From positions 4,282 to 68,281 of the forward strand of contig CAVIBR010000008.1 of assembly GCA_963641445.1 (NCBI GenBank): a stretch of DNA of 64,000 nucleotides, in the 5' to 3' direction. Under the pieces are notes generated by a model. That model was not told the origin of the DNA. It was given only the letters and a program-made list of their open reading frames with translations, and ran no database searches. Every line of letters starts with the position of its first letter. Position 1 is the stretch's first letter. The DNA is from Bacteroides uniformis (GTDB taxonomy: Bacteria; Bacillota_I; Bacilli_A; RFN20; CAG-826). The position numbers were made by a program, and so were the translations under genes. Positions 4,932 through 54,592 of this stretch are shown here, piece after piece.

Positions 4932-5025
4932 AAAAGATTAACTTTTTGCTTATTTTAGGCGATAAAAAGCAATTTTTCGGATGCAAATGAACGCTTTTTA
5001 CTGATGAGAAATATACCTATTTTTT

Positions 5026-5088
5026 CAAAACACCGAAAATGAAACCTTCAAAACACCGAAAATGAAACCTTCAAAACACCGAAAATGA
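5026..5088. repeat. 23 bp tandem direct repeat (caaaacaccgaaaatgaaacctt), about 2.7 copies, upstream of the ATPase gene
   Basis: Seen directly in the sequence. It sits about 55 bp upstream of the ATG at 5141. Confidence 0.8.
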
Positions 5089-5140
5089 TTGATAAGCACC
5101 TTTTATTATCATAAAATAATGAAGAAGAGATGTATTAACT

Positions 5141-8638: not shown

Positions 8639-8846
8639 AATTTAAGAATAAATATAGATATCATCGCATTTTATTCATGATTGTTATAAATTAACATTGC
8701 GTTGCCTAAAAAGAAGAAAACATACCTAATTTTATCGTTTGAGAAAAGAAGAATACGCCAAAGTATCCATCAAAAGTGCGCCAAAGTCTCCATTACTATT
8801 GCCTACTTTGGCGTTTTCTAGTAATATATCTCCAGAGAAACTTATT

Positions 8847-14800: not shown

Positions 14801-15292
14801 GAATATTGCACGACTAAAAACAAGAATGTTACTCGAACAAAAGAAGGACTTTACTGCCATCATATAGATGAAGATAAAGCTATTATGCTTTCAAATGATG
14901 CTTTCGCCAGGGCGAATCCTTTTGAATACCAAAAAGCGAATAGATTAGTTTATTGTAATTTTTTGGAACACTTTCTCTTACATATATTAATTGCGGAAGA
15001 GCCTAAAAAAGCTAATGCTAACAAAAAAGAACTTCAAGGAATCGGTGGAGCAGTTAGCTTTATTTGCAAACAACTTAATGATTTGTACAATGGCTACGAA
15101 TTTAAACAAGGGTGGATGAATAACACGACATCTATTGTAAAAAACGACTATGAAAGTTACATAATGATGCTAAAAAGGCTTTGGAACGATATTAAAAACG
15201 ATGAACTTTTATCGTTTATGATAAGAAAAAAAGAGTTGGCGATGGGCTGGGATGGCAGAATTTATCCAAAAGTATTAGAAGAACTAAAATAG
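11894..15292 (+). CDS. SNF2-family (Swi2/Snf2) helicase, 1132 aa, with a roughly 450 aa N-terminal domain (HhH-like) and a roughly 250 aa C-terminal extension
   Basis: Motif I LGDEMGLGKTIQAIA, motif II DEAHYIKN, MTGTALENR, and motif VI QAISRAYRMGQSRKVLVYRL. Confidence 0.85.
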   Translation: MPKAFKFKDANKQLKFYKKLFSDMDFAERFPISCENDLLKQLKLLQTSGFFDELVEKGVNGGEFDFNQPKLMSFISNVYRLKEGTNYAKKCKEIHESMIKEMVPPMTALSDSSFILLWIFSSKAEKKAAEEAYNKLVNSRNSDLVLSAVHILETIDGLPKSSLETIKNDYSTNRIRYKQILKKMNPDVFTEGGNVKIFEEYIKEHETLIVELNEIGASIQQSKKEIKDSLERLLAEKLISSLKAIPVEELAKSKTGIKVKYLKDAGYHDLADIQLASGAQLASVYGISQDKAYTIKNVCNEYYKQILKVTKIKLSTDDKSKAATRVVKSIYVYAKKLEFSKRIGNLNAEYGDSLNQAFAKLKKIGNGVIWPFLSKLEIGETRSAFEYVKKTLSTNYEPSAKKVLQEFRKNKSNSDNAWDDFAVNSINYYNIIEEICPGLLGNGDSLYGLPEDLARQIQDECYFPDGLLCTLRKYQEWGVKYILHQEKVLLGDEMGLGKTIQAIATMVSLKNTGGTHFLVICPTSVVTNWCREIIKHSKLRVTKIHGTGKETAFNSWLKTGGVAVTNYESIPYINLRENYKISLLVVDEAHYIKNPNARRSVNARLLASHSDRLLFMTGTALENRVDEMISLISVLRPSIADQIKHLAFMSSAPEFREKIAPVYYRRKREDVLTELPDKIESKEWCVLNPEEETIYEESILSKNFQKARRISWDVDDLNKSSKAQRLKEIVDEAEAEDRKILVFSYFLDTINKIHDFLDGKCLNPINGSINVNRRQEIIDEFDKAPAGTVLLAQINSGGTGLNIQSASVVVICEPQFKPSVENQAISRAYRMGQSRKVLVYRLLCENSIDEKLVDILEEKQQLFDAFADKSVAAEKTFEIDEKTFGDVIKEEIDRINKKREIPSESSLDVPPKIENHDKPTDLKDFDYEPINVTKNGKEYYKSIMKMSYDELVQFLINKYGPAKYDYYTNEYCTTKNKNVTRTKEGLYCHHIDEDKAIMLSNDAFARANPFEYQKANRLVYCNFLEHFLLHILIAEEPKKANANKKELQGIGGAVSFICKQLNDLYNGYEFKQGWMNNTTSIVKNDYESYIMMLKRLWNDIKNDELLSFMIRKKELAMGWDGRIYPKVLEELK

Positions 15293-23608: not shown

Positions 23609-24949
23609 CTATAGCAAAAATGTCATGTATATTGGCAAATATGTTGTTTCACCATCGTAGCTTAGGGTTTTTGGTGAGACAACGATTCTATTGAATTTCA
23701 ATTGAGGGTATTTCTCTTTTAATGTAGATAAAGATGAAGTGGTGAAACGTTTTGTTGGTTTTAATTCGATTGCATTCATCTTGCCTTTTATGAACGTGAC
23801 AAAATCTATCTCATATCTTTTATTTTCATATTCAAACGTATGGTAGAAACATTTTCTTCCATTGAAAACAAGGCTTTGAACGACCAATTATTCATAAAGA
23901 CTACCGTAATTTGCTCCATCGAGATTTCCCGTTCTTATTTTTAAATATGTTTTTTCACAATCTTCGTTCATATCTCCAATTAATGAAGATAACATTAGCC
24001 CGACATCAAGGGGGTGTAGTTTGAAATTGCTTTCTTCTTTCATAAATGAGCCAAAGCTTAAATCAGAACAACGATACACTGAATTAACGATTTTAGAATC
24101 TTCTAAGTCTTTTAGTGATCTTTGATAAGACTGCATCATCCTAGGGTTTCTAGCGTTTGTTTTTATTCTTTTTGACCATGATTTCAAGGCCGGAAGCATG
24201 GAATTGTATATATTCAAAGCGTTAGTATGAGATTTGCTATCATGTTTTCTTAAATCACCTTCGTATAGCTTTAAGATATCTTGTTTTTCTTTTTCACAAC
24301 GAATGAAAGAGTTTGTTTCTTGATATAAAGAGATGACTTTTGGCATGCCGCCTAGGGCTAAATACAATCTGAAATCATTCATTAATTGAGCATGAACTGA
24401 TTCATTTATCAATCTATGTTGATTTAGGATGTCACGTAGTAGGTCGCACTTCTCATTCCAGCCGAAAGCCCAGCAGAATTCTTCAAAATCAAGTGGATGC
24501 ATCTCAATTCTTCTTTCTTCGGAAGGAATTTGGATATCCTGCGTATTTTCTCTTATTGAAATTAGGGAACCTGTTTCTATATAGTCGAATCTTCCATCTA
24601 AAACAAGTGCTTTTATTGCTTGTCTTGCGAGAGGAAAATGCTGAACTTCATCAAAGATGATTAAGTCGCCTTTTTTCAATACCTTTCCAAATATCAAAAA
24701 CAAATCGGAAAAGAATTGATCCATATAGAGATTATTTGATGGATCGATGTTTTTGAATAGGTTCTTAACTTCGTCAGAAGCATAGGCGAAATCGATATAG
24801 ATGTAGTTGCTATACTCATTTTTAGCAAATTCTTTGACGGTTGTCGTTTTTCCAACTCGCCTTGCTCCTTCGATTAAAAGAACGAAATTTTTGTTCTTCT
24901 CATTTTTCCATTCTAACATCTGATCATATATTTTTCTTTTGAATTCCAT
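23609..24949 (-). pseudogene. AAA_14/DUF4143 ATPase interrupted by an in-frame TAA (353 aa + stop + 92 aa, same frame)
   Basis: Walker A LLIEGARRVGKTT. The downstream 92 aa is the usual C-terminal domain. The TAA at 23888-23890 is in frame and the next ORF resumes immediately. Confidence 0.6.
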
Positions 24950-24987
24950 AAGCTCTCCTTGTACATTTTCTAAATGAAATTAACGAA

Positions 24988-25045
24988 AAAAACATGAAAA
25001 ACTTGTATTTGGAAGCATCCAAAAACATGAAAAACTTGTATTTGG
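24988..25045. repeat. 25 bp direct repeat x2 (aaaaacatgaaaaacttgtatttgg) in the upstream region of the ATPase pseudogene
   Basis: Seen directly. Confidence 0.8.
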
Positions 25046-25146
25046 GTTTTGTTCAAATTTTTGAAACAAAGAATTTTCGAATCAAATTGAGCGTATTTAT
25101 TACAAATTTTGCTTTTATAATTTTGCAAAAAGGCAATAATAAAAAC

Positions 25147-28919: not shown

Positions 28920-28993
28920 ATTGATTTTTCATCCAATTTAAACTACTTTTCTTAGTTCTTTTTTATACATGTTTTTTGATAAAAATTATTTCA

Positions 28994-29110
28994 GGGCGAA
29001 AAAGCATAAAAAATATACGATTTCGCCCTAAAAAGCAATTGACTTGAGATATACGGCTTTTAAAATATATTATATAGAGCGAAAAACACTAAATTTTATA
29101 CGATTTCGCC
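28994..29110 (+). repeat. Two copies of hairpin family 1 ([ag]gcgaaaa - 19 nt loop - tttcgc[ct]); the second abuts the RBS of the ATPase gene
   Basis: Copies at 28994-29030 and 29077-29110. Confidence 0.8.
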
Positions 29111-29120
29111 GGAGAATATT

Positions 29121-30542
29121 ATGATAGGCAGAGAAAAAGAAGTAAATGAGTTACTAGATTTATACAATGATTCTAGGGCGGAGTTAGTCGCCGTTTATGG
29201 CAGAAGAAGAGTTGGTAAAACGTTTTTAATCAACCAAACATTTAAAGACAAATTTACTTTTAAACATACCGCTTTATCCCCGGATGGCAATGAAGATGAA
29301 ACAATAGCATTACAATTAGAAAGTTTTTATAGCAGTTTAGTTAAATATGGTTTAGAAGAAACTAAGAAGCCTTCCACTTGGTTCGAAGCATTTGATTTGT
29401 TAGAGAAATTGCTTATCAAGAAAGATAACGGATCTAGGCAAGTTGTATTTTTCGATGAATTACCTTGGCTGGATACTACGAAATCATATTTTATAAAAGC
29501 ATTTGAGTCTTTTTGGAATTCATTTGGCTGCGATAGAGAGAATTTGATGCTGATTGTTTGTGGAAGTGCCAATTCTTGGATTCAAAACAATTTGATTAAC
29601 AATCATGGTGGTTTGTATGGACGTGTCACATATGAGATAAAACTTAGCGCTTTTAATTTAAAAGAGACAGAAGAATATCTAAGGTCCAACGGAATCCTTT
29701 TATCAAGATATGATATTGCAACCGCATATATGATAATGGGGGGAATACCTTATTATTTAGGATATCTCAAAAAAGGAAAAAGTCTTCCTCAGAATATCGA
29801 TGATATTTTCTTCAAGAAAGATGGACAATTATCGTTGGAATTTGATAGATTATTTCAATCATGTTTTGAAAATCCTGATTTTGCAAAGAAACTTGTTATT
29901 TTGCTAAATGAAAGAAAAATCGGATTAACGAGAAATGAAATTGTTGAAAAGCTATCTATTGGTGATGGAGGAAATTTAACAAAAGTTCTTAATTCATTAA
30001 TCTCTAGCGATTTTGTAATTAAATATATTCCATTTGGGACTAAATCAAAAATAAGCTATTACAAATTGATTGACCCATTTTGTATCTTTTATCTGAAATT
30101 TAAATACGAGAAAAGTCCAAGCGAAAGTTATTGGTCCGATAACGATACAAACTCCCAACTTAATTCATGGAAGGGACTAGCTTTTGAAAATGTCTGTTTC
30201 AATCATATAAACCAAATCAAAGATGCGTTAAGAGTTGGTGGAGTGGCAAGCAAAGAATCACCTTGGTATTTCAAAGGTATTGACAACAACGGACAAGTTG
30301 ATTTGGTTATTGAAAGAAATGATAATGTCGTAAATCTTTGCGAGATTAAATTCTATCAATATGATTTTTCCGTTGATCTGAATTATTACAAAAAATTAAA
30401 TTTAAGAATAGAAGCGGCTAGACCATATGTTTCTAAGAGAACTTGCATTTTCAATACTTTGATTACGACTTATGGGTTGCATCAAAATGAGTACAGCAAT
30501 GTTTTCCAAAACGTGATAACTCTTGATGCTCTATTTGAGTAG
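29121..30542 (+). CDS. ATPase of a second family (Arch_ATPase/DUF234-like), paralog 1
   Basis: N-terminus MIGREKEVNELLDLY...VYGRRRVGKTFLI. Confidence 0.8.
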   Translation: MIGREKEVNELLDLYNDSRAELVAVYGRRRVGKTFLINQTFKDKFTFKHTALSPDGNEDETIALQLESFYSSLVKYGLEETKKPSTWFEAFDLLEKLLIKKDNGSRQVVFFDELPWLDTTKSYFIKAFESFWNSFGCDRENLMLIVCGSANSWIQNNLINNHGGLYGRVTYEIKLSAFNLKETEEYLRSNGILLSRYDIATAYMIMGGIPYYLGYLKKGKSLPQNIDDIFFKKDGQLSLEFDRLFQSCFENPDFAKKLVILLNERKIGLTRNEIVEKLSIGDGGNLTKVLNSLISSDFVIKYIPFGTKSKISYYKLIDPFCIFYLKFKYEKSPSESYWSDNDTNSQLNSWKGLAFENVCFNHINQIKDALRVGGVASKESPWYFKGIDNNGQVDLVIERNDNVVNLCEIKFYQYDFSVDLNYYKKLNLRIEAARPYVSKRTCIFNTLITTYGLHQNEYSNVFQNVITLDALFE

Positions 30543-30580
30543 AAGATATTTCATTTATTTCCTTTATATATCAATAAACT

Positions 30581-30615
30581 AGAGCGAAAAACACTATAAT
30601 TGATACGATTTCGCT
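30581..30615 (+). repeat. Hairpin family 1, downstream copy
   Basis: agagcgaaaaacactataattgatacgatttcgct. Confidence 0.8.
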
Positions 30616-31031
30616 TTAGCTTATTTTCTATTGACATAATTATCTATATGAATGAGGGGTTTGTTTTCGCTTTCTAATAGATAATTAATATCCTATTTAT
30701 ATACAAAGATATAGATAACTAAATAATGGATATTCATAATTTTTTTGATCTATACGCAAAAGATACTGGAGTAAACATTTTTTATATAAAATGAAACTAC
30801 TGTAATCTCCATTCTTACAAAAAGTCCCTATTTTCCTAGGTTTCCTATTTATATAAAGATATTTATAGGATTACAAGAAAACAAAATATGTTTCATATAA
30901 AAATAGTAAAAGTAACAAAAATATAAAAAATATTACATTTTCTCTTGCAATGGTTACAAAAGGGTGTATTATATAGCCAAGAGATACAAAGCAGTTGAAC
31001 TTGTAACTCTTAGAAAAGTGAGGCAAAACTT

Positions 31032-33095: not shown

Positions 33096-33728
33096 ATGAG
33101 TGTTGTTGTGGCGATAAAAGAAAATGGAAAGGTTTATATGGGTTGCGATTCCCAAGTTACTTGTGGAACGACCAAAAGCACTCTAAGCAATCCTAACAAC
33201 TTTAAGATGTGGAAAGTCAAAGGAGTTGATAATTGCCTTATGGCAAGCGTTGGGGACGTAAGAAATGCTTGCGTGATAAGAACAATAGAAGATCTTGTTA
33301 CCGAATACGATGCCTATAAAGGACGTATTTGTTATGAGTTTGTTGTGAATAGGATTCTTCCTACAATCATTGAACGTCTTCAAGATGCTAATTATCTAAA
33401 AAGAGATGAAGTCTTTAGAGATTTAGGCTCAAGCATCTTGTTTGCCTATAAAGATCAGCTATATGAGATCTGTTACGATGGGTCGGTGTTTGAAATTGAT
33501 GGCTGCGTAGCGCTTGGAAGTGGAATGAAACAAGCTCTTGGAAGCATGATTGAAAGAGAAGGGGAAGATCCAAAAACAAGGATCGTCAAAGCAATCAAAT
33601 CAAGCATGTCTGATATCTATGTCGATTATCCGATAATCTTATCTGATACGGAAACAACAGAATTTAATATAATCGCTAAGGAAAACGAAACAGATTACCT
33701 TAAATCCATCGAAGGTCAAACTAGATGA
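33096..33728 (+). CDS. HslV-like / proteasome-beta-like Ntn hydrolase (peptidase T1 family)
   Basis: MSVVVAIKENGKVYMGCDSQVTCG compares to HslV [23 protein letters not shown], and CVALGSGMKQALG to AIGSGGPYAQAA. The predicted N-terminal nucleophile is Ser2 rather than Thr. Strong RBS. Confidence 0.6.
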   Translation: MSVVVAIKENGKVYMGCDSQVTCGTTKSTLSNPNNFKMWKVKGVDNCLMASVGDVRNACVIRTIEDLVTEYDAYKGRICYEFVVNRILPTIIERLQDANYLKRDEVFRDLGSSILFAYKDQLYEICYDGSVFEIDGCVALGSGMKQALGSMIEREGEDPKTRIVKAIKSSMSDIYVDYPIILSDTETTEFNIIAKENETDYLKSIEGQTR

Positions 33729-33855
33729 AGTTCTTAGGACATATTTTATCTGGCTTGTCCTAGTTTCTTTAGGATATGTCATTTGCTATTTTGGTTGGTT
33801 AAATACGCTAATTAGATGGATTGAAAATTTAGACCATTAATTAAGGAGAATTTGA

Positions 33856-35148
33856 ATGGAAAAATATACTTTAGATAATTTTGGTGGATATGAAGAAGAA
33901 AAGATTGAAGCGGAGAAAATAATCAATTTCTTAAAAAATTATGATTATTACGTCTCACAAGGGGCGTATCTTCCTAAAGGGATGCTCATATACGGTCAAC
34001 CAGGAACAGGAAAGACGATGTTATCGAAGATCATCTCTAGCGAAGCAAACGTTCCTCTTGTCACTCTAGATTTGAAGAATTCTGCTAACTTCAATTTGAT
34101 TGACGCGATAAATAAGGTCTTTGATCAAGCGCTTAGCAAGACTCCATCCGTCTTATTGCTTGATGAGATTGATCAAACCGTTAAGATGAGAAGATACGGT
34201 GATGCGACCGATAGAGAGAATGATGTTCTTAGAACATTGCTAACAAGAATTGATGGAATCAATACCTCTGATGGGGTATTTATCATTGCAACATCAAACG
34301 TTTCCTCGGTTGAAGAATGTGACCAAGCCTTAACTAGACAAGGAAGAATTGAAAAATACATCAGCCTACATTTACCGAATATCGATGAAAGAAAAGAAAT
34401 TCTAAAAATCTATCTCAATAAGAATCACATATTCGATGATGTCAATGTTGCTACACTTGCTAAACGTACAAAAGGGTTTAGTGGATCATCAATTAAATCC
34501 TTGATCAATTCCGTCTTGATATGGGCCTTAAATGAGAAAGTGGATAATGTTTCTACAGATGATTTCTATCAATATATCCAGCAAATATCTCATCGTGGAA
34601 TCAATAAGAAAAAGACTTCTGATACGGATTTAAAGGCTACGGCATATCATGAATTAGGACATTTCATCTGTGACTATATTCTAAATAAGAATATTGGAAC
34701 AATATCAATTGAAACATATGGTGAGACCGCTGGAGCATATAGACGCGTTCAAGACGAAGAAAGAGAAAATACTAGCTATACAGCCTTAAAGAATGAAATT
34801 ACTGTTGCCTTAGGAGGACTTGCTGCAGTTGAAGTGTATCTAGGAGAAAAATACACTGGAGCAGCAAGCGATATCAAAAAGGCTAGAGGCATATATGAAG
34901 AAATGCTTGATAATGGGATGCTCGGCCTAGATAGACTAAATGAAGCACCATTAAGATTGAGGTCAATTGCTGTACTTAGCTTATCTGAGGAATACCTATC
35001 TAGAGAAGGAAAATTCATGACTGAATGTTATCAGGCTGCAACGAACATTATTAAAGAAAACAAAGAAATAATTGATAAGCTCTATCCAATCTTAGTTAAG
35101 AATAAAATCATCTTCGAATCTAAGATTAATGAGATATTGAAGAAGTAG
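33856..35148 (+). CDS. Soluble FtsH-like AAA+ ATPase with M41 metallopeptidase domain (no TM or periplasmic region)
   Basis: Walker A GQPGTGKT, Walker B LLLDEID, second region of homology ATSNVSSVEECDQALTRQGRIEKYI. M41 zinc motif TAYHELGHF plus a TGAASDIKKAR block like FtsH TGASNDIKVAT. Confidence 0.75.
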   Translation: MEKYTLDNFGGYEEEKIEAEKIINFLKNYDYYVSQGAYLPKGMLIYGQPGTGKTMLSKIISSEANVPLVTLDLKNSANFNLIDAINKVFDQALSKTPSVLLLDEIDQTVKMRRYGDATDRENDVLRTLLTRIDGINTSDGVFIIATSNVSSVEECDQALTRQGRIEKYISLHLPNIDERKEILKIYLNKNHIFDDVNVATLAKRTKGFSGSSIKSLINSVLIWALNEKVDNVSTDDFYQYIQQISHRGINKKKTSDTDLKATAYHELGHFICDYILNKNIGTISIETYGETAGAYRRVQDEERENTSYTALKNEITVALGGLAAVEVYLGEKYTGAASDIKKARGIYEEMLDNGMLGLDRLNEAPLRLRSIAVLSLSEEYLSREGKFMTECYQAATNIIKENKEIIDKLYPILVKNKIIFESKINEILKK

Positions 35149-35519
35149 ATTACAGGTATCTCGTAGTGGGATGCCTTTTAATATTGGAAAAACGGATTGA
35201 TTCTTTTTGATTTCGAATGGGATATTTGGATTGCCTAAAAGGTTATTCAATCTAGAGGAAATAGGTGCAAAGAGTTTCTTAAGGCGAAAGAAACATTATA
35301 ATGAAGAACCAGTCAATGAAAGTAAAAACATTCATCTTAGCAAAAATGTTTGGACGGCTTGTTAGAGAATAAGCAGATGTGCTTATCAAAAAGATGAATA
35401 AAGAAAAAACTACAGAAGTGATTAACAAGAGAATTTTCATCGTAGATTAGCAAAATAATAAAGCTTCACATATGTTTTTTGGATTTTTGAGCAATAAATT
35501 CTTTAAGTGGAATTTTTAT

Positions 35520-35640
35520 TTTTGGCGGAAAGTGTCAAAAAAAATTGAGTTTCCGCCAAAAATGTTTAGAATTTTTTCTTATTTTTATGATAAGATAATT
35601 GGCGGAAAGTACTAAAAAAATTGAGTTTCCGCCAAAAATG
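35520..35640 (+). repeat. Two copies of hairpin family 2 (ttttggcggaaa - 18 nt loop - tttccgccaaaa); the second abuts the RBS
   Basis: Copies at 35520-35564 and 35598-35640. Confidence 0.8.
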
Positions 35641-35652
35641 GAGGTTTAAAGT

Positions 35653-37071
35653 ATGATTATCGGAAGAGAAAAAGAAGTCAATATCTTGCAAGAAAATTAT
35701 AAGTCGGATGGATCATCATTTATTGCAGTTTATGGCAGAAGAAGAATTGGTAAAACTTTTCTTATCAATGAAACTTTGGGCGATAAAATTCTTTTTAGGC
35801 ATGCAGGCATTTATGGTGGCACTTGCAAACAGCAAATAAAGTCTTTCATGAAATCTCTTGCTGAATATGGATATGCTCCCCAAGACAACGTTAAGGATTG
35901 GTTTGACGCTTTCGAAGAATTGAAAAATTATATAAAGTCTTCCAATGAAAGCAAAAAGGTTTTGTTTTTTGATGAAATCGCTTGGATGTATACGAAAAAA
36001 TCTGATTTCGTTCGTGCATTAGAATATTTCTGGAATAGCTGGGCAAGTGCTAGAAAAGATATTATGTTAGTGATTTGCTCTTCTGCAACATCTTGGATAA
36101 TCAACAATATAGTTCATAGCAAAGGCGGTTTATATAATAGGATTACGGCACAAATATATTTAGAACCATTTACATTGAATGAGTGTGAAAAATATTGTGC
36201 ATACAAGAATTTAGCTTTGACTCGTAAACAAATAATTGAAACCTATATGGTTATTGGTGGTGTTCCATATTATTGGAATTATCTAAAAAAAGGAGAATCA
36301 GTTGCTAAATTTATTGATAACAATTTCTTTGCTAACAATTCTCCATTAAGTGATGAACTGAAATATATATTTTCTTCTTTGTTTTCTTCGCCTGAAGCTT
36401 ATTTAAAAATCATTGAGGCGTTATCAGAGAAAAAATATGGCTTAACTAGGCAAGAAATTCTAATTGAAACAAAGCAGGATGAAAACGGCAATTTCTCACA
36501 AAAAATAGAAGATTTAGTAAACTGCGGATTTATAAGAGAGTATTCATCTTTCAAATCGAAAAAGAAAGAAGTACTTTACCAATTGATTGATCCTTTTACC
36601 ATTTTCCATTTTCATTTTTTGAAGAAAAGAGTGAATGATGAGAATTTTTGGGCAAATCAAATAAATTCTCCTACTATAAACGCATGGAAAGGCCTTGCTT
36701 TTGAAAGAATCTGCCTGTTGCATCTAAATAGTATTAAGAAAGCAATGGGAATATTTGGAGTATATACATCAGTTTATCCTTTTTCATGCAAGCAAAATGA
36801 GGAGAAGAACATATTCGGATCTCAAATTGATATGGTTTTAGAAAGAAAAGACGATATTGTGAATCTTTTTAAAATTAAATATTATGATGAGCCTTTCTCA
36901 TTAACTAAAAAGCATCTTGAATTATTTTCAAGGAAAAAACATGATTTTGTGGAAGTTACAAAAACCAAATCATCTATTCATTTATCTTTGATTTCATTGA
37001 ATGGCGTAGTTGAAAACGAGTATCTTAATGAGATTCAAACCGTTCTTAACGAAGATGATTTGTTCTTATAA
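35653..37071 (+). CDS. ATPase of a second family (Arch_ATPase/DUF234-like), paralog 2
   Basis: MIIGREKEVNILQENY...VYGRRRIGKTFLI. Confidence 0.8.
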   Translation: MIIGREKEVNILQENYKSDGSSFIAVYGRRRIGKTFLINETLGDKILFRHAGIYGGTCKQQIKSFMKSLAEYGYAPQDNVKDWFDAFEELKNYIKSSNESKKVLFFDEIAWMYTKKSDFVRALEYFWNSWASARKDIMLVICSSATSWIINNIVHSKGGLYNRITAQIYLEPFTLNECEKYCAYKNLALTRKQIIETYMVIGGVPYYWNYLKKGESVAKFIDNNFFANNSPLSDELKYIFSSLFSSPEAYLKIIEALSEKKYGLTRQEILIETKQDENGNFSQKIEDLVNCGFIREYSSFKSKKKEVLYQLIDPFTIFHFHFLKKRVNDENFWANQINSPTINAWKGLAFERICLLHLNSIKKAMGIFGVYTSVYPFSCKQNEEKNIFGSQIDMVLERKDDIVNLFKIKYYDEPFSLTKKHLELFSRKKHDFVEVTKTKSSIHLSLISLNGVVENEYLNEIQTVLNEDDLFL

Positions 37072-37091
37072 ATTGTAGCTTTTTAATTATT

Positions 37092-37134
37092 TTTGGCGGA
37101 AAGTGCCTAAAAAATTGAGTTTCCGCCAAAAATG
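37092..37134 (+). repeat. Hairpin family 2, downstream copy
   Basis: ttttggcggaaagtgcctaaaaaattgagtttccgccaaaaatg. Confidence 0.8.
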
Positions 37135-37443
37135 TTAAAAATATCAATCAAAAACAAAGTTAAAATAAAGTATTTATCGAATTCTTTTGTTACCTATTTT
37201 TCACACCAACAAATTGTTGTTTTAACGCATTATAACGATGACTGTTTTGAAAAATGATAACAAATGATAACAAATGACAACAAATTTGACATAATACTCT
37301 AAGCAAGGAGGCTTATATGATAGGGAATTATACAATAGCCCATTCAATGTATCGTATGCGAACAACCAAAATGCTTTATTCCAAGAAAAGGCGAATTTGA
37401 AGAAATAAGAACTGTTTTTTCATCTGATGACCCTAGGACAAAA

Positions 37444-38376
37444 GTGTTTCTTATTGGTGGGTCTAGAGGATGTGGGAAGACCGTTTTACTTTCTCAACTC
37501 AAAGAACATTTCGATAAAAGTGATGATTGGGTTTGCGTTGATTTAAATCCGTTTTTAGATATGTTTGAACAACTTGCCTCTAAACTCTACTCGGAAGGAA
37601 AACTTAAACATCTATTTTTGAAAAGTGAATTTTCTATTTCTTTCAAGGGCATTTCCTTTTCTCTTTCTGGAGAGAATCCAGTTACTGATGCATCCTCATT
37701 AATAAAGGCGATGTTGCAGTATTTAAAAAAGAAAGGGAAACGTGTCTTGATAACTATTGATGATATATCAGGAAATTCTGAAGCAAAGGCTTTCTTCCAA
37801 GGCTACCAATCGTTCATTAGAGAGAAGTTTGATATCTTTCTCCTTATGACTGGTTTATATGAAAATGTATCTAATATTGTTAACGATAAAAGTCTAACCT
37901 TCCTTCTAAGGACTCCTAACATATACTTATCAAAGTTAAACGTTAGGGGGATTAGCCTTTCATATCAAAACCAGTTGGGCGTTGGCTTTGACAAGGCTTT
38001 AGAATTCGCAAAGCTTACTAAGGGCTACGCCTATGCATATCAATTACTTGGCGACCTTTTATACCGCACTGACAAAAAAATTACTGAAGAAATTCTTCAA
38101 TCTTTTGATTCTACATTAGAAGATAACGTATATAACAAGATTTGGAGCTCTTTATCTAAGAATCAAAAAACGATATGTTATGCGTTGTCTTCATTAAATA
38201 AAAAAGAAGTTAAAGAACTAATTGATTCAACTGGCTTCTCTAATTCGATGATTCAAGTATACAAAAAGAGAATGTATTTAGTGGGTATATTAGATTTATC
38301 AACTAGAGGAGAAATAGATTTTTCTTTGCCTAGATTTAAAGAATTTGTTAAATTTCAAAAAGCGTTAGAAGAATAA
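37444..38376 (+). CDS. Divergent P-loop ATPase paralog with no canonical start; possible pseudogene
   Basis: GGSRGCGKT. The frame is open back to 37339 with no ATG. The ORF track begins at a GTG. Confidence 0.4.
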   Translation: MFLIGGSRGCGKTVLLSQLKEHFDKSDDWVCVDLNPFLDMFEQLASKLYSEGKLKHLFLKSEFSISFKGISFSLSGENPVTDASSLIKAMLQYLKKKGKRVLITIDDISGNSEAKAFFQGYQSFIREKFDIFLLMTGLYENVSNIVNDKSLTFLLRTPNIYLSKLNVRGISLSYQNQLGVGFDKALEFAKLTKGYAYAYQLLGDLLYRTDKKITEEILQSFDSTLEDNVYNKIWSSLSKNQKTICYALSSLNKKEVKELIDSTGFSNSMIQVYKKRMYLVGILDLSTRGEIDFSLPRFKEFVKFQKALEE

Positions 38377-48583: not shown

Positions 48584-51007
48584 ATGAAAAAAAGAACGTT
48601 AACGATCCTTCTAATTATTCCGTTTGTAATTTCTTTGATGACTTTTGCCTCTATCAAGATTCTTGATAACCAAGTCGCAGTAGATATTCTTGGCATTGAA
48701 TGGGATTATGATGAGAATGAAGGCTTCCAAATTGATAGCAATAATGGTTATGAGCTTAAAGCAAAGCCAATCATTGATCCAAATCTCATTTTAGCAAAAG
48801 GAAATGACCTCGTTTGGTCTTTGAAAAAGATCAATGAGACTGATGAAGATTTTGCCTCAATTGAAGAAAAAGATGGGAAATTCTATTTATATGCCCTCAA
48901 AAAAGGTGAGGTTGAAGTAGTTTGCTCAAACGAAAGAGGGAGCAAATCTAAGTATTTCACGGCGACAATATTTGAAGACGGAGCGATGGTTATCAATCCA
49001 AAACGCAAAGGCAGTGGATCGTCTCTTTCTTCACTTAAATATTACGGCTTATATGATTTTAATGAAGGCAAGAAGACTCTTTCGTCTTTTGAAATAACGT
49101 CTACATCTTATTTAGACAATGGAAAAAAGAGTGAAGAGAATCGTTTAGTTGATTCATCTAATAACGTTTCTTATTCAAATGGAAAGGTATCTCTTCTTTC
49201 TCCAGGTGAGGCATATCTTACCCTTGAAGAACCGACATATCGTTATCGTTCAACATATAAATTCAATGTAGTAGACGGAGTTAATGTTTATTCTTATTCA
49301 GATCTTCTTTTGGGAACAAATAAATCGCAAGATGGAGAAAATATCGTTTTACAAGTTAACCTTGAATCTTTGAAAAATACTTATTCATATGATACTGAAA
49401 CAAATAAATATATTGATACAAAGCTATCTTCTAGCGAAGGCAATACAGAATTATTTGGAAACTTTGATTTTACTAGCCAAAGATTCTCTTTCGATGAGGA
49501 ATATTACACGTTTACCACGACATACGATTCGACATATATCGATCAATACAACAAAGAGAAGAATGCATCAGTTAAGAAAGATGTTATTGCAGGTATTCAT
49601 TTAAGAAAGAACCTCTATGGAAATGGCTTTACCATCAATATGAATGGACTTTGTTATCCAAATCATGGCGAGATAGATAAATTCACTGGTAAAAGAGTTC
49701 CAAAAAAGAAGGATGAAGCGGCAGGCGGAGCATATGACTATTTCTATGGCCCATTACCATTCGTTTCCGTTGGAGATATGGTTTCTTTCCCACTTGTTAC
49801 TGCCTTAGGACAAGATAATTCTGGCATCTATATTGATGATGACAACGTCACATTAAACGATGTTAAGTTATCTAATTGTGATGAAGTGGATAATCTTTAC
49901 AATCTTTCTTATACGGGATCAATAATCGACATCAAAGGAAAGAACGTGACTATTTCTAATTCTATTCTTTCTAATGCGAAAGTATGTGTTAGAGCCTATG
50001 ATAGCGATAATCTTTTGATTGATAATTCAATCCTCAAGAATTCAGGCGATTTCACTCTCTTATTAGGCAGCGATAAGAAAGATTCGTATGATACAAATAG
50101 AAGAATCCAAGATTACGGCCTTGATATGTCTTATTCTGATTTCTTTGATAACGTTGATGAAAATAGGCAAGATACTGCAAACGGAGTATTAAATTCCTTC
50201 CTTAATGCGACAATGAATGGAACCCTAAAAGAAGGAGATTACAAGACTAAATTAGAACTTATCCAGAAATATCTTGATAACGATAAGAACGCTAAAAACT
50301 TTGTTGCGAATATCACCGTGAAAGATTCTTTCTTTGGAAGAAGTGGAGTCTTCTCAATTGCCTTTGAATCTATCTTTAATGGAGCGTTGCTCTATGGAAA
50401 GATCCCAACGATGATAACGAAGTTACTAGGCAGTTATCTTAACGCGCCATTGCCGGAGAAGTTAGGCGGAACCTCCTCCCCAGTTCATCTTACTTTAGAA
50501 GGAGATACAAGATTCTATGACTGGAAAGATGTCGATACAATCGATGTTTCTTCCCTTATCGAAGAAAACATTTCAAGAACGCTTAACCAAATGGGATATG
50601 GCGATAAGAATGTTACAATCGATGATATATTCCCAATGAAATCTGCTTTAAAGAAAGAAGCAGCTTCTAAGAACTTAGTGTATTCAAAAGATGGAAAGTC
50701 TTATTTGAATACTTCAATTGCCTATTATGGCGGGGGATTGAATAACTCCGTTATCGATATTAAGTCTGATTTGGCCTACAATACCTATAGCGATGAAACG
50801 GAAGTCTCCTTGCTTGATGAGACGATTGAAAATAATAAAGGCGGAGGCTATTCTTCCTTATTTGTCGATTGTGTTATCGTTACCATTGGCACTCATCCAT
50901 TTAGATTCATCACAAATGGAGAAAAAGAAAGTGATAATCCTATCTTATTTGATCAAGTTCCTTCCATTGAAGGATTAAAGAAACATTTGCAGGAGGCAAA
51001 AATATGA
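48584..51007 (+). CDS. Large secreted or surface protein with parallel beta-helix (pectin-lyase-fold) repeats
   Basis: N-terminal signal anchor. Repeated NxSIxxN-type rungs (NVTISNSILSNAKVCV...DNSILKNSGDF). Confidence 0.55.
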   Translation: MKKRTLTILLIIPFVISLMTFASIKILDNQVAVDILGIEWDYDENEGFQIDSNNGYELKAKPIIDPNLILAKGNDLVWSLKKINETDEDFASIEEKDGKFYLYALKKGEVEVVCSNERGSKSKYFTATIFEDGAMVINPKRKGSGSSLSSLKYYGLYDFNEGKKTLSSFEITSTSYLDNGKKSEENRLVDSSNNVSYSNGKVSLLSPGEAYLTLEEPTYRYRSTYKFNVVDGVNVYSYSDLLLGTNKSQDGENIVLQVNLESLKNTYSYDTETNKYIDTKLSSSEGNTELFGNFDFTSQRFSFDEEYYTFTTTYDSTYIDQYNKEKNASVKKDVIAGIHLRKNLYGNGFTINMNGLCYPNHGEIDKFTGKRVPKKKDEAAGGAYDYFYGPLPFVSVGDMVSFPLVTALGQDNSGIYIDDDNVTLNDVKLSNCDEVDNLYNLSYTGSIIDIKGKNVTISNSILSNAKVCVRAYDSDNLLIDNSILKNSGDFTLLLGSDKKDSYDTNRRIQDYGLDMSYSDFFDNVDENRQDTANGVLNSFLNATMNGTLKEGDYKTKLELIQKYLDNDKNAKNFVANITVKDSFFGRSGVFSIAFESIFNGALLYGKIPTMITKLLGSYLNAPLPEKLGGTSSPVHLTLEGDTRFYDWKDVDTIDVSSLIEENISRTLNQMGYGDKNVTIDDIFPMKSALKKEAASKNLVYSKDGKSYLNTSIAYYGGGLNNSVIDIKSDLAYNTYSDETEVSLLDETIENNKGGGYSSLFVDCVIVTIGTHPFRFITNGEKESDNPILFDQVPSIEGLKKHLQEAKI

Positions 51008-53164: not shown

Positions 53165-54592
53165 TTAGAGGAATAAGTCTTCTCCGATAATTTCCTTTTG
53201 AATTACATCGGAATGAGAATTCTCTTTCAAACCGTTATTAGTAATCATCGTTAACACCAATTGTTCATTTGGTTTAACTTCATTTGCAAAGACTTGTATT
53301 TTGTGAAGAAGATTCTCTTCATAATCTTTTGTTATTTCATATTTGCCAATGGAATGTTTGATTTCACATACGTTTATGATCATGTCTCTTCTATGAATCA
53401 ATAAATCGATTTGAGCGCCAGGATCTGATTTTTTGCTTTTCCAGGAATATTCTTTTGTCATTACTCCTGATATCCCTAAAGCATTTTTAATCGAAGATAT
53501 ATTGTTTAGGCAAAGAATTTCAAAAGCATGTCCTGCCCAAGCATAATATGCAGGCGTATTTATGAATGATAGCCAATTGTCGAAAGAGGGTGAGATGAGA
53601 AAAGTTTTAGCAAACAAAGTGAATGGATCAATTAATTGGTAGAACTTATTGTTTTTTGCCGTGTTATAGTTTTCATAGGCTCTTACAAAACCACACTCGG
53701 ATAATTCTTCTAAAGCAGTAGTTAAGGATTTTCCATCACCTATAGATGAAATCGAAGCAAGTTCTTTTCTTTGCATACCCATGCTTTTCTTCATCAATGC
53801 TTCGATTATTTCTCTATGTTTCCCTTTTGCGTTGAATAGAGACCTAAACAAAGCCTGATATTCGTCATGCAACTGACCACTTTCTTTGAAACATAAATTA
53901 TCGATATTTTGAGCTAAGCTCATTTCTGAATCTAATAAATCCCAATAATATGGGATTCCGCCAAAAACCATGTAAGTTTCAATTATTTGGCTTTTTGTAT
54001 AATGCAATTTCAATTGCTCGCTATATAAAAGACATTCTTTCAATGAGAAAGGCATTAGATGTATTTTTCTTGTCAAACGATTATAAAAACCGCCAGTATC
54101 TTTGACCATGTTGTTCATAATCCAAGATGTAGCAGAACCACATACAATGAAGACTAAGTCGTTTTGCATTGAACCATAGGTATTCCAGAATGAATCTAAG
54201 CCTGCTTTAAAATCGCTTCTTTTCCCATCCATCCACGGTAATTCATCTAAGAATACAATTCTTTTCTTATAAATTGGATCACGATAAACGTTATCGCTTT
54301 CTAAGAATTTCTTTAGAAGCCTAAAAGCGTCAAGCCAATCCTTTGGCTCAGAGCCATCTTCAATCTTATAGCTATAATCAACCAAGGCATTGGTGAAATT
54401 CTTTAGTTGAAAAGCATTGTTTTTGTTATTTATGCCACTGGCATAGAAAGAGAACTTGTTGTTAAAGAACTTTTTAATAAGATATGTTTTGCCGACTCTT
54501 CGTCTTCCGTATAAAACCAAGAATTCTGGTTTAGAAGATTTTAGGCAAGATAGAAGTTCTTTTTGCTCATCAACACGACCGATTAAGTTCAT
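53165..54592 (-). CDS. ATPase of a second family (Arch_ATPase/DUF234-like), paralog 3
   Basis: MNLIGRVDEQKELLSCL...LYGRRRVGKTYLI. Same architecture as 29121 and 35653. Confidence 0.8.
   Translation of the reverse strand: MNLIGRVDEQKELLSCLKSSKPEFLVLYGRRRVGKTYLIKKFFNNKFSFYASGINNKNNAFQLKNFTNALVDYSYKIEDGSEPKDWLDAFRLLKKFLESDNVYRDPIYKKRIVFLDELPWMDGKRSDFKAGLDSFWNTYGSMQNDLVFIVCGSATSWIMNNMVKDTGGFYNRLTRKIHLMPFSLKECLLYSEQLKLHYTKSQIIETYMVFGGIPYYWDLLDSEMSLAQNIDNLCFKESGQLHDEYQALFRSLFNAKGKHREIIEALMKKSMGMQRKELASISSIGDGKSLTTALEELSECGFVRAYENYNTAKNNKFYQLIDPFTLFAKTFLISPSFDNWLSFINTPAYYAWAGHAFEILCLNNISSIKNALGISGVMTKEYSWKSKKSDPGAQIDLLIHRRDMIINVCEIKHSIGKYEITKDYEENLLHKIQVFANEVKPNEQLVLTMITNNGLKENSHSDVIQKEIIGEDLFL

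What the first reader, a model, noticed from the sequence alone, without database searches (positions are those of the whole stretch)
35520..37134. Second hairpin-bracketed ATPase cassette (family 2: ttttggcggaaa / tttccgccaaaa)
Three copies at 35520-35564, 35598-35640 and 37092-37134 have 12 bp perfect arms and an 18 nt loop (gtgtcaaaaaaaattgag and variants). The layout is identical to cassette 1: the second copy is fused to the RBS. The downstream neighbour at 37444 is a start-less, divergent paralog.
Basis: seen in the sequence. Interest (0 to 1): 0.55.

Follow-up and report, generated by a model that had tools for sequence, protein, structure and literature searches.

The report
Cognate DNA-binding palindromes of an ATPase-nuclease gene
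The three "hairpins" around this gene are most likely double-stranded DNA palindromes bound by the winged-helix domain of the protein the gene encodes (an uncharacterised Orc/Cdc6-like ATPase-nuclease of the widespread "PDC-S27" defence-candidate family), which gives that family its first predicted DNA target and a one-residue/one-base specificity rule that can be tested.

Summary
Three copies of GGCGGAAA-N17/18-TTTCCGCC lie two upstream and one downstream of ORF 35653-37071.

The ORF encodes an AAA+ ATPase, a winged helix (wHTH) and a PD-(D/E)xK nuclease. It matches PADLOC candidate PDC-S27 and folds like Orc1/Cdc6.

Homologs in many phyla carry the same kind of palindrome next to the gene. 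Aligned on the dyad, the half-site consensus is TATAnTTnGCsrAAA around an A/T-rich, non-complementary centre.

- There is no strand bias.
- In Bacteroidota the dyad lies 36-39.5 nt (or about 10 or 21 nt further) upstream of the -7 promoter box, so it is not transcribed.
- One protein column, residue 277 just before the wHTH recognition helix, co-varies with half-site base 13. D/E goes with G, N with T, S/T with C (z = 16.6; next best 7.0). Three of three prospective predictions held.

I therefore read the repeats as cognate operators, probably autoregulatory, rather than RNA hairpins.

Gene and palindromes are gained and lost together: there is an empty site in a related genome and a tandem-array polymorphism in gut Bacteroidales. 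The role of the downstream copy is unresolved.

The neighbour at 37444 is a decaying, unrelated P-loop NTPase gene.

The parts
35518..35563 (.). Palindrome O1 ('hairpin 1'). Arms ATTTTTGGCGGAAA / TTTCCGCCAAAAAT with an 18-bp A-tract centre. It ends 1 nt before the putative -35 hexamer.
   Evidence: (I11)
35565..35596 (+). Putative sigma-70 core promoter between O1 and O2: -35 TTTAGA (35565-35570), then 17 nt, then -10 TGATAA (35588-35593) or TAAGAT (35591-35596). Inferred by analogy with orthologs that have TTGACA-17-TATATT (L082) and TTGAAT-17-TATATT (L083) in the same place. The consensus scan instead offers TTGAGT(35545)-16-TAGAAT(35572).
   Evidence: read from the sequence, no TSS data
35599..35635 (.). 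Palindrome O2 ('hairpin 2'). Arms TTGGCGGAAA / TTTCCGCCAA with a 17-bp centre. It starts at about +1 of the putative promoter and ends 4 nt before the SD.
35640..35644 (+). Shine-Dalgarno sequence GGAGG
35653..37071 (+). Gene for a 472-aa AAA+ ATPase (Walker A G28-T35, Walker B D107-E108), a wHTH (about residues 247-312) and a PD-(D/E)xK domain (about 340-470; D393, E407, K409). PADLOC family PDC-S27; Pfam ATPase_2.
36481..36483 (+). Codon of E277, the residue just before wHTH recognition helix H3 (residues 279-290). Its identity across the family predicts half-site base 13, which is G here.
37089..37133 (.). Palindrome O3 ('hairpin 3'), 17 nt after the stop codon. Same arms as O1. Its flanks (ATTTTTG... 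and ...AAAAATGTT) also resemble those of O1.
   Evidence: (I3)
37317..38376 (+). Neighbouring pseudogene of an unrelated P-loop NTPase. Start lost and N-terminus frameshifted here; the start is intact in L085 and L266. Not part of the system.

Best explanation
The three repeats are double-stranded palindromic binding sites (operators) for the protein encoded between them.

Each site has two inverted half-sites. The family consensus, read outer to inner at 23 to 9 nt from the dyad, is TATAnTTnGCsrAAA. Here it reads ATTTTTGGCGGAAA. The half-sites flank an A/T-rich centre of about 18 bp, and their centres are about 32 bp (three helical turns) apart.

Each half-site is read by the winged-helix domain of one protomer of the AAA+/wHTH/PD-(D/E)xK protein. 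Residue 277, at the N-terminal edge of the recognition helix, sets the preference at half-site position 13. That is why each paralog has its own arm sequence.

In this lineage O1 sits directly upstream of the -35 hexamer and O2 covers the start site and the 5' leader. The protein therefore most likely controls its own promoter. I favour autorepression, which would keep a potentially toxic ATP-dependent nuclease low.

O3, just after the stop codon, is either a third site (looping or roadblock) or the leftover operator of a lost tandem cassette.

What is shown (computationally): the site architecture, its family-wide association with the gene, the absence of strand bias, the phasing with the promoter, the residue-base covariation, and the gain and loss of gene plus sites as one unit.

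What is inferred: binding as a dimer, the sign of regulation, the role of O3, and the biological role of the nuclease.
For: 1. Protein. It has Pfam ATPase_2 and a full-length PADLOC PDC-S27 match, E = 3e-180. The AF2 model has pLDDT 92 and shows AAA+, lid, wHTH (H3 at 279-290) and a PD-(D/E)xK domain. The best structural matches are 2QEN and Orc/Cdc6, including DNA-bound archaeal Orc1/Cdc6 2QBY. Walker A and B and D393 are invariant, and E407 and K409 nearly invariant (at least 90%), in 66 homologs.

2. Association. In 83 homolog loci from many phyla, inverted-repeat density is 5.5/kb in the 300 nt upstream and 3.9/kb in the 150 nt downstream. It is 0.5-0.9/kb in coding sequence and far flanks.

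3. Specificity of the association. Of 30 metagenome matches to the arm pattern that have an A5/T5 tract in the centre, 17 lie within 350 bp of such a gene. Of the 90 matches without a tract, none does.

4. Half-site. A dyad-anchored alignment of 150 sites gives a conserved half-site, with A at position 10 in 87% and C at position 14 in 75%. The centre (positions 1-6) is only 25-40% self-complementary, and positions 1-3 are 80-96% A/T.

5. No strand bias. The central tract is an A-run in 38 upstream sites and a T-run in 43. Loop composition is A 711 / T 736 and G 315 / C 302. Arm mismatches compatible with sense-strand G.U number 20, against 14 of the antisense type.

6. Promoter phasing in Bacteroidota. 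The distance from dyad to TAnnTTTG is 36-39.5 nt in 26 of 53 loci (35-39.5 nt in 28), with further clusters near 48 and 58. Without first selecting palindromes, 25 of 70 loci have at least 8 of 9 complementary pairs at that position. None of 210 control positions does.

7. Covariation. A mutual-information scan of all protein columns against 10 DNA positions in 79 non-redundant loci gave one outlier: residue 277 with base 13, z = 16.6, 0.81 bit. The next best is z = 7.0.

8. The rule. D/E goes with G (30 of 39), N with T (8 of 11), S/T with C (12 of 13), counting loci where base 13 could be called. The rule holds in 51 of 64 loci, permutation p below 1e-5. Among nearest-neighbour protein pairs, when the residue class differs the base differs in 18 of 21. 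When the class is the same the base is the same in 20 of 27.

9. Prospective test. In four loci fetched afterwards, N gave T twice and E gave G once, as predicted. G277 gave C, as in the one earlier Gly case.

10. Orthologs at 66-71% identity in different genomic contexts keep the O1 / promoter / O2 / SD / gene / O3 layout.
Against: - Nothing here shows binding or regulation directly, and the TSS is not mapped.
- The consensus promoter scan does not call the TTTAGA/TGATAA pair. It offers an alternative, TTGAGT-16-TAGAAT.
- A near-identical strain (L085) has a 76-bp deletion that fuses O1 and O2 and removes the proposed promoter. Yet the gene is intact there.
- Some family members have perfect arms of 20-28 bp. 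That is longer than a wHTH half-site needs and hints at a structural or recombinational constraint as well.
- A downstream copy is not needed for autoregulation, yet 22 of 67 loci have one.
- The specificity rule has exceptions (13 of 64). One is paralog C of this window, with D277 but T at position 13.
- The covariation was computed on sites that were chosen for being palindromic.
Confidence: 0.72

Rival explanations
1. The repeats act as single-stranded or cruciform DNA structures that mark the ends of a mobile or excisable cassette, in the manner of integron attC sites or transposon ends. The encoded AAA+/PD-(D/E)xK protein would recognise its own flanking palindromes and cut or recombine there. 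This does not exclude protein binding to the sites. It differs in what the binding is for.
For: - The gene is flanked by direct copies of its palindrome in 22 of 67 loci. In L024 the two 54-bp copies are identical.
- Some arms reach 20-28 bp.
- Gene and palindromes are present or absent as one unit relative to L266.
- In gut Bacteroidales strains, cassettes in a tandem array are lost individually, with breakpoints next to or inside palindromes and orphan palindromes left behind.
- L085 shows recombination between O1 and O2.
- Orthologs sit in unrelated genomic contexts.
- The nuclease catalytic residues are conserved.
Against: - No near-identical copies were seen in different contexts. The three paralogs in the window are only about 40% identical.
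- Two thirds of loci have no downstream copy.
- The empty site in L266 holds no solo palindrome, and no target-site duplication is evident.
- One breakpoint in the gut array is a 7-bp microhomology. That suggests ordinary illegitimate recombination.
- The fixed helical phasing with the promoter is not expected for element ends.
- No integrase or transposase was found among the ORFs scanned.
Confidence: 0.13
2. The repeats act as RNA hairpins: a 5'-terminal stem-loop (copy 2) that stabilises the mRNA or tunes translation, and a 3' stem-loop (copy 3) that ends or protects the transcript.
For: - As RNA, the three copies fold well: -21.1, -14.8 and -19.9 kcal/mol, z = -5.3, -3.9 and -5.9.
- In this SD-using lineage copy 2 lies between the putative promoter and the SD, and copy 3 directly follows the stop.
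- No canonical terminator follows the gene.
Against: - Copy 1 lies upstream of the promoter.
- In Bacteroidota the only upstream copy lies upstream of the -7 box, so it is not transcribed.
- The central tract is an A-run or a T-run equally often, and G.U-type mismatches show no strand preference.
- The 'loop' is 11-20 nt and unpaired.
- The stems are followed by A-runs, not U-runs, and no terminator is called.
- The hairpin does not include the SD. If transcription starts inside the 5' arm it barely folds: -6.6 kcal/mol, z = -0.8.
- There is no Rfam match.
- It does not explain the residue 277 / base 13 covariation.
Confidence: 0.07
3. The repeats are generic repeated extragenic palindromes (REP/MITE-like), or binding sites of some host factor, and lie near these genes by chance.
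For: They are short AT-flanked palindromes in intergenic DNA. A few orphan copies exist with no adjacent ATPase gene, for example L261 and L153.
Against: - In the window the arm sequence occurs as a palindrome only at the cassette.
- Each paralog has its own arms.
- The association with the gene family holds across phyla.
- Arm sequence co-varies with a residue of the adjacent protein.
Confidence: 0.03

Closest known systems
PADLOC 'phage defence candidate' PDC-S27 (single-gene ATPase + PD-(D/E)xK; Pfam ATPase_2/DUF234, COG1672)
   Same: The protein is a full-length member by HMM, E = 3e-180 over residues 2-471. It has the described ATPase plus PD-(D/E)xK architecture (PMC12988326; PMC3424549). 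It is abundant in gut, rumen and archaeal genomes (PMC13356809; 10.1101/2025.11.08.687337).
   Different: The papers found here describe only the protein, which was picked up by 'guilt by embedding'. None mentions a wHTH, cognate palindromes or autoregulation. The one representative tested gave no protection against T4, T5 or T7 in E. coli (PMC12881386). The DNA sites and the specificity residue are new information about the family. The defence role itself remains unproven.
Archaeal Orc1/Cdc6 initiators and their origin recognition boxes (ORB)
   Same: The best structural matches after 2QEN are Orc/Cdc6 proteins with the same AAA+ / lid / winged-helix order, including DNA-bound 2QBY. From my own knowledge: ORB elements are inverted repeats flanking an A/T-rich unwinding element, and they usually lie next to the orc1/cdc6 gene. 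That geometry matches what is seen here.
   Different: There is no significant sequence match to any PDB chain and only 11-17% identity in the structural alignments. The protein carries an extra C-terminal nuclease domain. The A/T-rich spacer is only about 18 bp. There are several to dozens of divergent paralogs per genome, each with its own site, and the sites are phased with the gene's promoter. Nothing suggests replication.
Autoregulatory palindromic operators of restriction-modification controller (C) proteins, and of defence-island regulators such as BrxR/CapW (from my own knowledge)
   Same: Palindromic operators, often two, lie at the promoter of the regulator's own gene or operon. Different family members have different operator sequences. 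The presumed purpose is to keep a dangerous nuclease under tight control.
   Different: Here the DNA-binding domain is part of the ATPase-nuclease itself, not a separate small regulator. The half-sites are about 32 bp apart rather than adjacent. A third of loci also carry a copy after the stop codon.
Integron gene cassettes with attC sites
   Same: Each is a single ORF bracketed by imperfect palindromes whose sequence varies between cassettes while their symmetry is kept. Cassettes are gained and lost as units.
   Different: No IntI or attI was found among the ORFs scanned. There is no R''/R' GTTRRRY core. The arms share a family consensus that tracks a residue of the cassette's own protein. 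Each cassette has its own promoter. The cassettes in the window are 5-16 kb apart, not in an array.

Membership tests
PADLOC PDC-S27 / Pfam ATPase_2 (PF01637) + DUF234-type PD-(D/E)xK | Full-length match to the family HMM | tested here: met
   PDLC04984 matches at E = 2.9e-180 over residues 2-471 of 472. ATPase_2 scores 54.5 bits against a cut-off of 33.2.
PADLOC PDC-S27 / Pfam ATPase_2 (PF01637) + DUF234-type PD-(D/E)xK | C-terminal PD-(D/E)xK nuclease domain with catalytic D...E.K | tested here: met
   The AF2 model shows an alpha-beta-beta-beta-alpha-beta core at residues 340-448. D393 is invariant and E407 and K409 at least 90% conserved in 66 homologs. The Pfam DUF234 hit itself is seen only in paralog A and falls below the cut-off (21.3 against 22.5 bits).
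PADLOC PDC-S27 / Pfam ATPase_2 (PF01637) + DUF234-type PD-(D/E)xK | Anti-phage activity | not testable with these tools
   The label is a candidate only. One representative gave no protection in E. coli (PMC12881386).
Orc1/Cdc6 replication initiators | AAA+ / lid / winged-helix fold | tested here: met
   Foldseek probability 1.00 to Orc/Cdc6 chains including 2QBY_A, 1FNN and 1W5S, with TM-scores of 0.3-0.44.
Orc1/Cdc6 replication initiators | Sequence membership (Cdc6/Orc1 Pfam families) and no extra catalytic domain | tested here: not met
   No Cdc6/Orc Pfam hit and no PDB sequence hit. The protein has an extra nuclease domain.
Orc1/Cdc6 replication initiators | Sites function as a replication origin / MCM loading | not testable with these tools
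   GC skew across 33-40 kb shows no distinct switch at the cassette. This was not otherwise tested.
Integron cassette / attC | IntI integrase and attI in the neighbourhood; promoterless ORFs in an array | tested here: not met
   No integrase was found among the 28 ORFs scanned with Pfam. Not every ORF of the window was scanned. The cassettes are 5-16 kb apart and each has promoter-like hexamers or a -7 box.
Integron cassette / attC | attC architecture: R''-L''...L'-R' with a GTTRRRY core and extrahelical bases | tested here: not met
   The dyad-anchored consensus is TATAnTTnGCsrAAA, with no such core.
Intrinsic (rho-independent) terminator | GC-rich stem, 3-8 nt loop, U-tract | tested here: not met
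   No terminator-like site in 35400-37350. The loops are 17-18 nt and the stems are followed by A-runs.
Any Rfam RNA family | Covariance-model match | tested here: not met
   No match at gathering score anywhere in the window. Only sub-threshold eukaryotic miRNA/snoRNA noise appears at E up to 10.
Palindromic autoregulatory operator (functional class, not a sequence family) | Fixed position and helical phase relative to the core promoter | tested here: met
   The distance from dyad to TAnnTTTG is 36-39.5 nt, with further clusters about 10 and 21 nt longer. The positional test gave 25 of 70 loci against 0 of 210 controls. In SD-using loci, O1 abuts the -35 hexamer and O2 starts near +1.
Palindromic autoregulatory operator (functional class, not a sequence family) | Site sequence is read by the protein encoded next to it | tested here: met
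   By covariation only: residue 277 with base 13, z = 16.6; the rule holds in 51 of 64 loci; 3 of 3 prospective predictions held. Physical binding was not tested.
Palindromic autoregulatory operator (functional class, not a sequence family) | Binding changes transcription of the gene | not testable with these tools
   No expression or TSS data are available.

The most novel reading that the evidence does not exclude
PDC-S27 genes are self-addressed nuclease cassettes. The Orc/Cdc6-like ATPase would assemble on its own flanking palindromes, with specificity set by residue 277 and neighbouring residues. It would then use its PD-(D/E)xK domain to cut or recombine there. That would excise, exchange or mobilise the gene-plus-site unit. 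This would be a previously undescribed kind of recombination or mobility module, and would explain the tandem arrays, the orphan palindromes, the flanking direct copies and the very long perfect arms. A milder form of the same idea: the family is a large natural library of ATP-dependent, sequence-specific nucleases whose target can be read from one or a few wHTH residues.
Probability: 0.12. Interest if true: 0.85.

Novelty: new variant of a known kind. Interest (0 to 1): 0.63.

Why it matters
PDC-S27 is among the most abundant unexplained "defence candidates" in gut, rumen and archaeal genomes. It is reported in 71% of Halobacteria genomes and in thousands of copies in rumen MAGs. No mechanism is known, and the one published phage test was negative.

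If these proteins are sequence-specific DNA binders, each with its own palindrome next to its own gene, three things follow:
- The family gains a concrete, cheap experimental handle: EMSA, ChIP and residue-277 swaps.
- The many paralogs per genome become understandable as a set of mutually non-cross-reacting specificities.
- The "defence" label should be treated with caution until the role of the nuclease is known.

The D/E-G, N-T, S/T(/G)-C rule matches classical amino-acid/base preferences (Asp/Glu with C, Asn with A, Ser/Thr with G on the other strand). It is a rare case where a recognition code can be read from genome context alone.

For annotation, these palindromes should not be called terminators, riboswitch-like leaders or MITEs.

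Tried and rejected
- **Rfam.** I ran it at gathering score on the whole window and at E up to 10 on 35400-37350. It returned only noise.
- **Intrinsic terminator.** None is predicted.
- **RNA reading.** I tested it by strand asymmetry of loop tracts and of G.U-type mismatches and by position relative to the Bacteroidota -7 box. I rejected it as the general function.
- **Literature, 'DUF234'.** The search was swamped by DUF2345 papers. Searches for COG1672, PF01637, PF03008, PDC-S27, PDC-S01 and DUF4143 found only surveys and the PD-(D/E)xK classification. None mentions repeats.
- **Exact-protein look-up.** The look-up with the window translation failed, but the identical cluster representative P0001 worked.
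- **Empty-site search through the upstream neighbour.** That FtsH-like protein has almost no close relatives. Only one informative genome, L266, was found, and at about 83% identity the junction cannot be placed to the nucleotide.
- **Metagenome pattern scan.** 90 of the 120 hits were unrelated GC-rich or nested palindromes. They served as a negative set.
- **Second viral-contig scan.** It returned almost the same loci as the first, so it gave no independent test set. I used four further protein look-ups as a small prospective test instead.
- **Other covarying pairs.** The next best are residue 21 with position 9, 232 with 15, 427 with 13, and 225 with 11, at z = 5.6-7.0. They are not clearly above background and I do not interpret them.
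- **Organism.** The source was not identified. The window has no rRNA or tRNA, and I ran no further search on it.
Full report
**1. The observation.**
- O1: arms 35518-35531 / 35550-35563, 14 bp perfect, 18-nt centre.
- O2: arms 35599-35608 / 35626-35635, 10 bp perfect, 17-nt centre.
- O3: arms 37089-37102 / 37120-37133, 14 bp perfect, 17-nt centre.

GGCGGAAA occurs 8 times in the window against 1.29 expected, and six of these are the arms. The full pattern never appeared in 100 shuffles. O2 ends 4 nt before the GGAGG of ORF 35653-37071, and O3 begins 17 nt after its stop codon.

Two paralogs (about 40% identity) have the same layout of two upstream copies and one downstream copy, with different arms:
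- ORF 53165-54592(-), arms CCCTAAAA/TTTTAGGG.
- ORF 29121-30542(+), arms GCGAAA/TTTCGC.

**2. The protein.**
The ORF hits Pfam ATPase_2 and matches the PADLOC model PDC-S27 over its full length at E = 3e-180. NCBIfam and the PDB sequence search returned nothing.

An AF2 model built on 66 homologs has pLDDT 92. It shows:
- an AAA+ domain and lid at about residues 1-245;
- a winged helix at 247-312, with H3 at 279-290 and the wing at 294-311;
- a PD-(D/E)xK core at about 340-448.

Walker A and B and D393 are invariant, and E407 and K409 are conserved in at least 90% of the homologs. Foldseek ranks the Pyrococcus ATPase_2 protein 2QEN first. Orc/Cdc6 proteins follow, including archaeal Orc1/Cdc6 bound to origin DNA.

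In the literature PDC-S27 is a 'guilt-by-embedding' defence candidate, described only as an ATPase fused to a PD-(D/E)xK domain (PMC12988326; PMC3424549). The single representative tested did not protect E. coli against T4, T5 or T7 (PMC12881386). I found no paper that mentions repeats next to these genes.

**3. The repeats are a family-wide feature.**
A scan of one genome per species returned 584 relatives. I examined the best 80, which come from Bacteroidales, Lachnospiraceae, Christensenella, Kiritimatiellae, Lentisphaerae, Treponema, Succinatimonas and others.

Inverted repeats with loops of 10-24 nt are about 6-10 times denser in the 300 nt upstream (5.5/kb) and the 150 nt downstream (3.9/kb) of the gene than in coding sequence or far flanks (0.5-0.9/kb). 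Arm sequences differ from locus to locus.

Orthologs at 66-71% identity sit in unrelated genomic contexts. They keep the exact layout O1, then -35/-10, then O2, SD, gene and O3. Clear promoters lie between O1 and O2: TTGACA-17-TATATT in L082 and TTGAAT-17-TATATT in L083.

A metagenome scan for the arm pattern gave 120 hits. Thirty of them have an A5 or T5 tract in the centre, and 17 of those lie within 350 bp of a PDC-S27 gene. None of the other 90 does.

**4. Anatomy of a site.**
Anchoring 150 sites on their dyad shows that the variable 'loop length' is an artefact. It depends on how far chance complementarity runs inward.

In a common register the half-site reads, outer to inner, T A T A n T T n G C s r A A A at 23 to 9 nt from the dyad. 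Position 10 is A in 87% and position 14 is C in 75%. Positions 1-6 are self-complementary in only 25-40% of sites, and positions 1-3 are 80-96% A/T. Half-site centres are about 32 bp apart, roughly three helical turns.

Non-redundant loci have one (47), two (18) or three (2) upstream copies. Dyad spacings cluster near 52 and at 73-84 bp. A same-arm copy lies within 170 nt after the stop in 22 of 67 loci.

**5. DNA, not RNA.**
On the sense strand the central tract is an A-run in 38 upstream sites and a T-run in 43. Loop composition is symmetric (A 711 / T 736; G 315 / C 302). Arm mismatches compatible with G.U on the sense strand number 20, against 14 of the antisense type.

In Bacteroidota-type loci the -7 promoter box TAnnTTTG lies 24-36 nt before the ATG, downstream of the proximal palindrome. 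The dyad-to-box distance is 36-39.5 nt in 26 of 53 loci, with further clusters near 48 and 58. That is helical phasing.

I also tested this without selecting palindromes first. At a dyad 36.5-39 nt upstream of the box, 25 of 70 loci have at least 8 of 9 complementary pairs. None of 210 control positions does.

As RNA, O2 would fold at -14.8 kcal/mol but leaves the SD free. If transcription starts inside its 5' arm it barely folds. No terminator and no Rfam family is called.

**6. The adjacent protein reads the site.**
I computed mutual information between every protein column and ten variable half-site positions in 79 non-redundant loci. One outlier emerged: residue 277 (window numbering) with base 13, z = 16.6 and 0.81 bit. 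The next best pair has z = 7.0.

Residue 277 is in the turn just before recognition helix H3 of the wHTH. Among loci where base 13 could be called, the table is:
- D/E with G in 30 of 39 loci;
- N with T in 8 of 11;
- S/T with C in 12 of 13.

On the opposite strand these pairings are Asp/Glu with C, Asn with A and Ser/Thr with G, the classical preferences (my own knowledge).

The rule holds in 51 of 64 loci (permutation p below 1e-5). It also holds among closest relatives. When the residue class differs the base differs in 18 of 21 pairs, and when the class is the same the base is the same in 20 of 27.

With the identical flank TTGGC-x-, D-type proteins have G (seven loci, including this one with E277), S-type proteins have C (two loci) and the one N-type protein has T.

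As a small prospective test I fetched four further loci chosen only by their residue. N gave T twice and E gave G once. G277 gave C, as in the one earlier Gly case.

In the window, cassette B (E277, G) and cassette A (D, G) obey the rule. Cassette C (D, T) is an exception.

**7. Cassette behaviour.**
A strain with about 98% identical flanks (L085) has a clean 76-bp deletion. It fuses O1 and O2 into one palindrome and removes the DNA between them.

A more distant relative, L266, has about 83% nucleotide identity in the upstream neighbour. It carries the same left neighbour, plus an intact 213-aa ORF of which the window keeps only a remnant. The same right-hand NTPase gene follows about 100 nt later. 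Neither the ATPase gene nor any palindrome lies between them.

In a human-gut Bacteroidales locus, strains differ in three ways:
- Some have P1a-P1b-gene1 followed by only the first 15 nt of a second palindrome, P2. The junction there is a 7-bp microhomology.
- Some have gene1 plus an orphan P2 and unrelated cargo.
- Some have P1a-P1b left as orphans, followed by P2-gene2.

So gene and site travel together, palindromes are frequent breakpoints, and a 'downstream' palindrome can be the operator of the next cassette or a relic of one. No integrase or transposase was found among 28 ORFs scanned in the window.

**8. Interpretation.**
The best-supported reading is that O1-O3 are cognate double-stranded binding sites for the wHTH of the encoded protein. 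Paralog-specific recognition is set in part by residue 277. I put my confidence that they are such sites at about 0.8.

Their placement argues for control of the gene's own promoter. In SD-using lineages they abut the -35 hexamer and cover +1. In Bacteroidota they sit at a fixed phase upstream of the -7 box. I favour autorepression of a potentially toxic nuclease, at about 0.55. An activating role for the upstream site, centred near -60, cannot be excluded.

The role of O3 and the meaning of very long arms in some loci remain open. They leave room for a recombinational or mobility function of the same protein-site pair (about 0.13).

**9.
- The cassette picture is right.
- The hairpin/RNA picture is not the best one.
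- The neighbour at 37444 is indeed start-less, with its ATG lost and a frameshift; its start is intact in L085 and L266.
- That neighbour shows no significant similarity to the cassette ATPase (E = 0.68).

**10. Limits.**
Everything here is computational.
- The covariation used sites that were pre-selected as palindromes.
- The TSS and the sign of regulation are inferred.
- The promoter hexamers in this window are weak, and the consensus scan prefers another pair.
- The L085 deletion shows that the two-site arrangement is dispensable, at least in the short term.
- The source organism was not identified.

Noticed in passing
window 28989-30616: A third cassette of the same kind. ORF 29121-30542(+) is a 473-aa ATPase_2 protein with a weak DUF234 hit. 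Palindromes with arms (G)GCGAAA/TTTCGC(C) lie at about 28989-29033, 29078-29112 and 30581-30616. A TTGACT-16-TAAAAT promoter lies between the first two.
   Followed up: partly
ORF 53165-54592(-) has palindromes with arms CCCTAAAA/TTTTAGGG at about 54729-54692, 54647-54604 and 53166-53107. It is an exception to the specificity rule: D277 but T at half-site position 13.
   Followed up: partly
window 5024-5090; 8750-8819; 24985-25046: Three genes of the sister family PDC-S01 (AAA_14 + DUF4143) lie at 5141-6424(+), about 8848-10121(+) and 23888-24949(-, AAA_14 only). Each has its own repeats just upstream: three tandem copies of TTCAAAACACCGAAAATGAAACC; GCCAAAGT twice direct and once inverted; and two direct copies of CCAAATACAAGTTTTTCATGTTTTT. 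The sister family may also carry cognate sites.
   Followed up: no
window 33096-35148: A proteasome-type subunit (210 aa) is followed by a soluble FtsH-like AAA + M41 protease (430 aa, no membrane anchor). This pair has very few close relatives among 5.8 billion proteins: only four hits at 45% identity or more.
   Followed up: no
window 37234-37296 and 37317-38376: A decaying P-loop NTPase gene is preceded by three tandem ATGA(T/C)AACAA units. The related genome L266 has two sets of these units and an intact start codon.
   Followed up: partly
L085:2788-3222 versus window 35149-35660: In a strain about 98% identical, O1 and O2 are fused by a clean 76-bp deletion between their shared 27-nt segments. 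The repeats are recombination-prone.
   Followed up: yes
L162, L190, L194, L200, L247, L260 (human-gut metagenome contigs): A tandem array of PDC-S27 cassettes shows strain-level presence/absence of single cassettes, orphan palindromes, and a 3.4-kb alternative cargo of two convergent ORFs (659 and 260 aa) inserted right after an orphan palindrome.
   Followed up: partly
L208:8181-8218 and L201:5423-5460: A palindrome with the same TTGGCGGAAA arms lies near a distant ATPase_2 + DUF234 gene (23% identity to the window protein). It is about 80 nt downstream of the stop in L208 and about 1.3 kb downstream in L201.
   Followed up: no
window 11894-15292 and 40175-51007: An SNF2-family helicase (1132 aa) and a run of seven ORFs without any Pfam hit (40175-51007) lie in the same window as six ATPase-nuclease genes. 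The region may be a defence or variable island.
   Followed up: no
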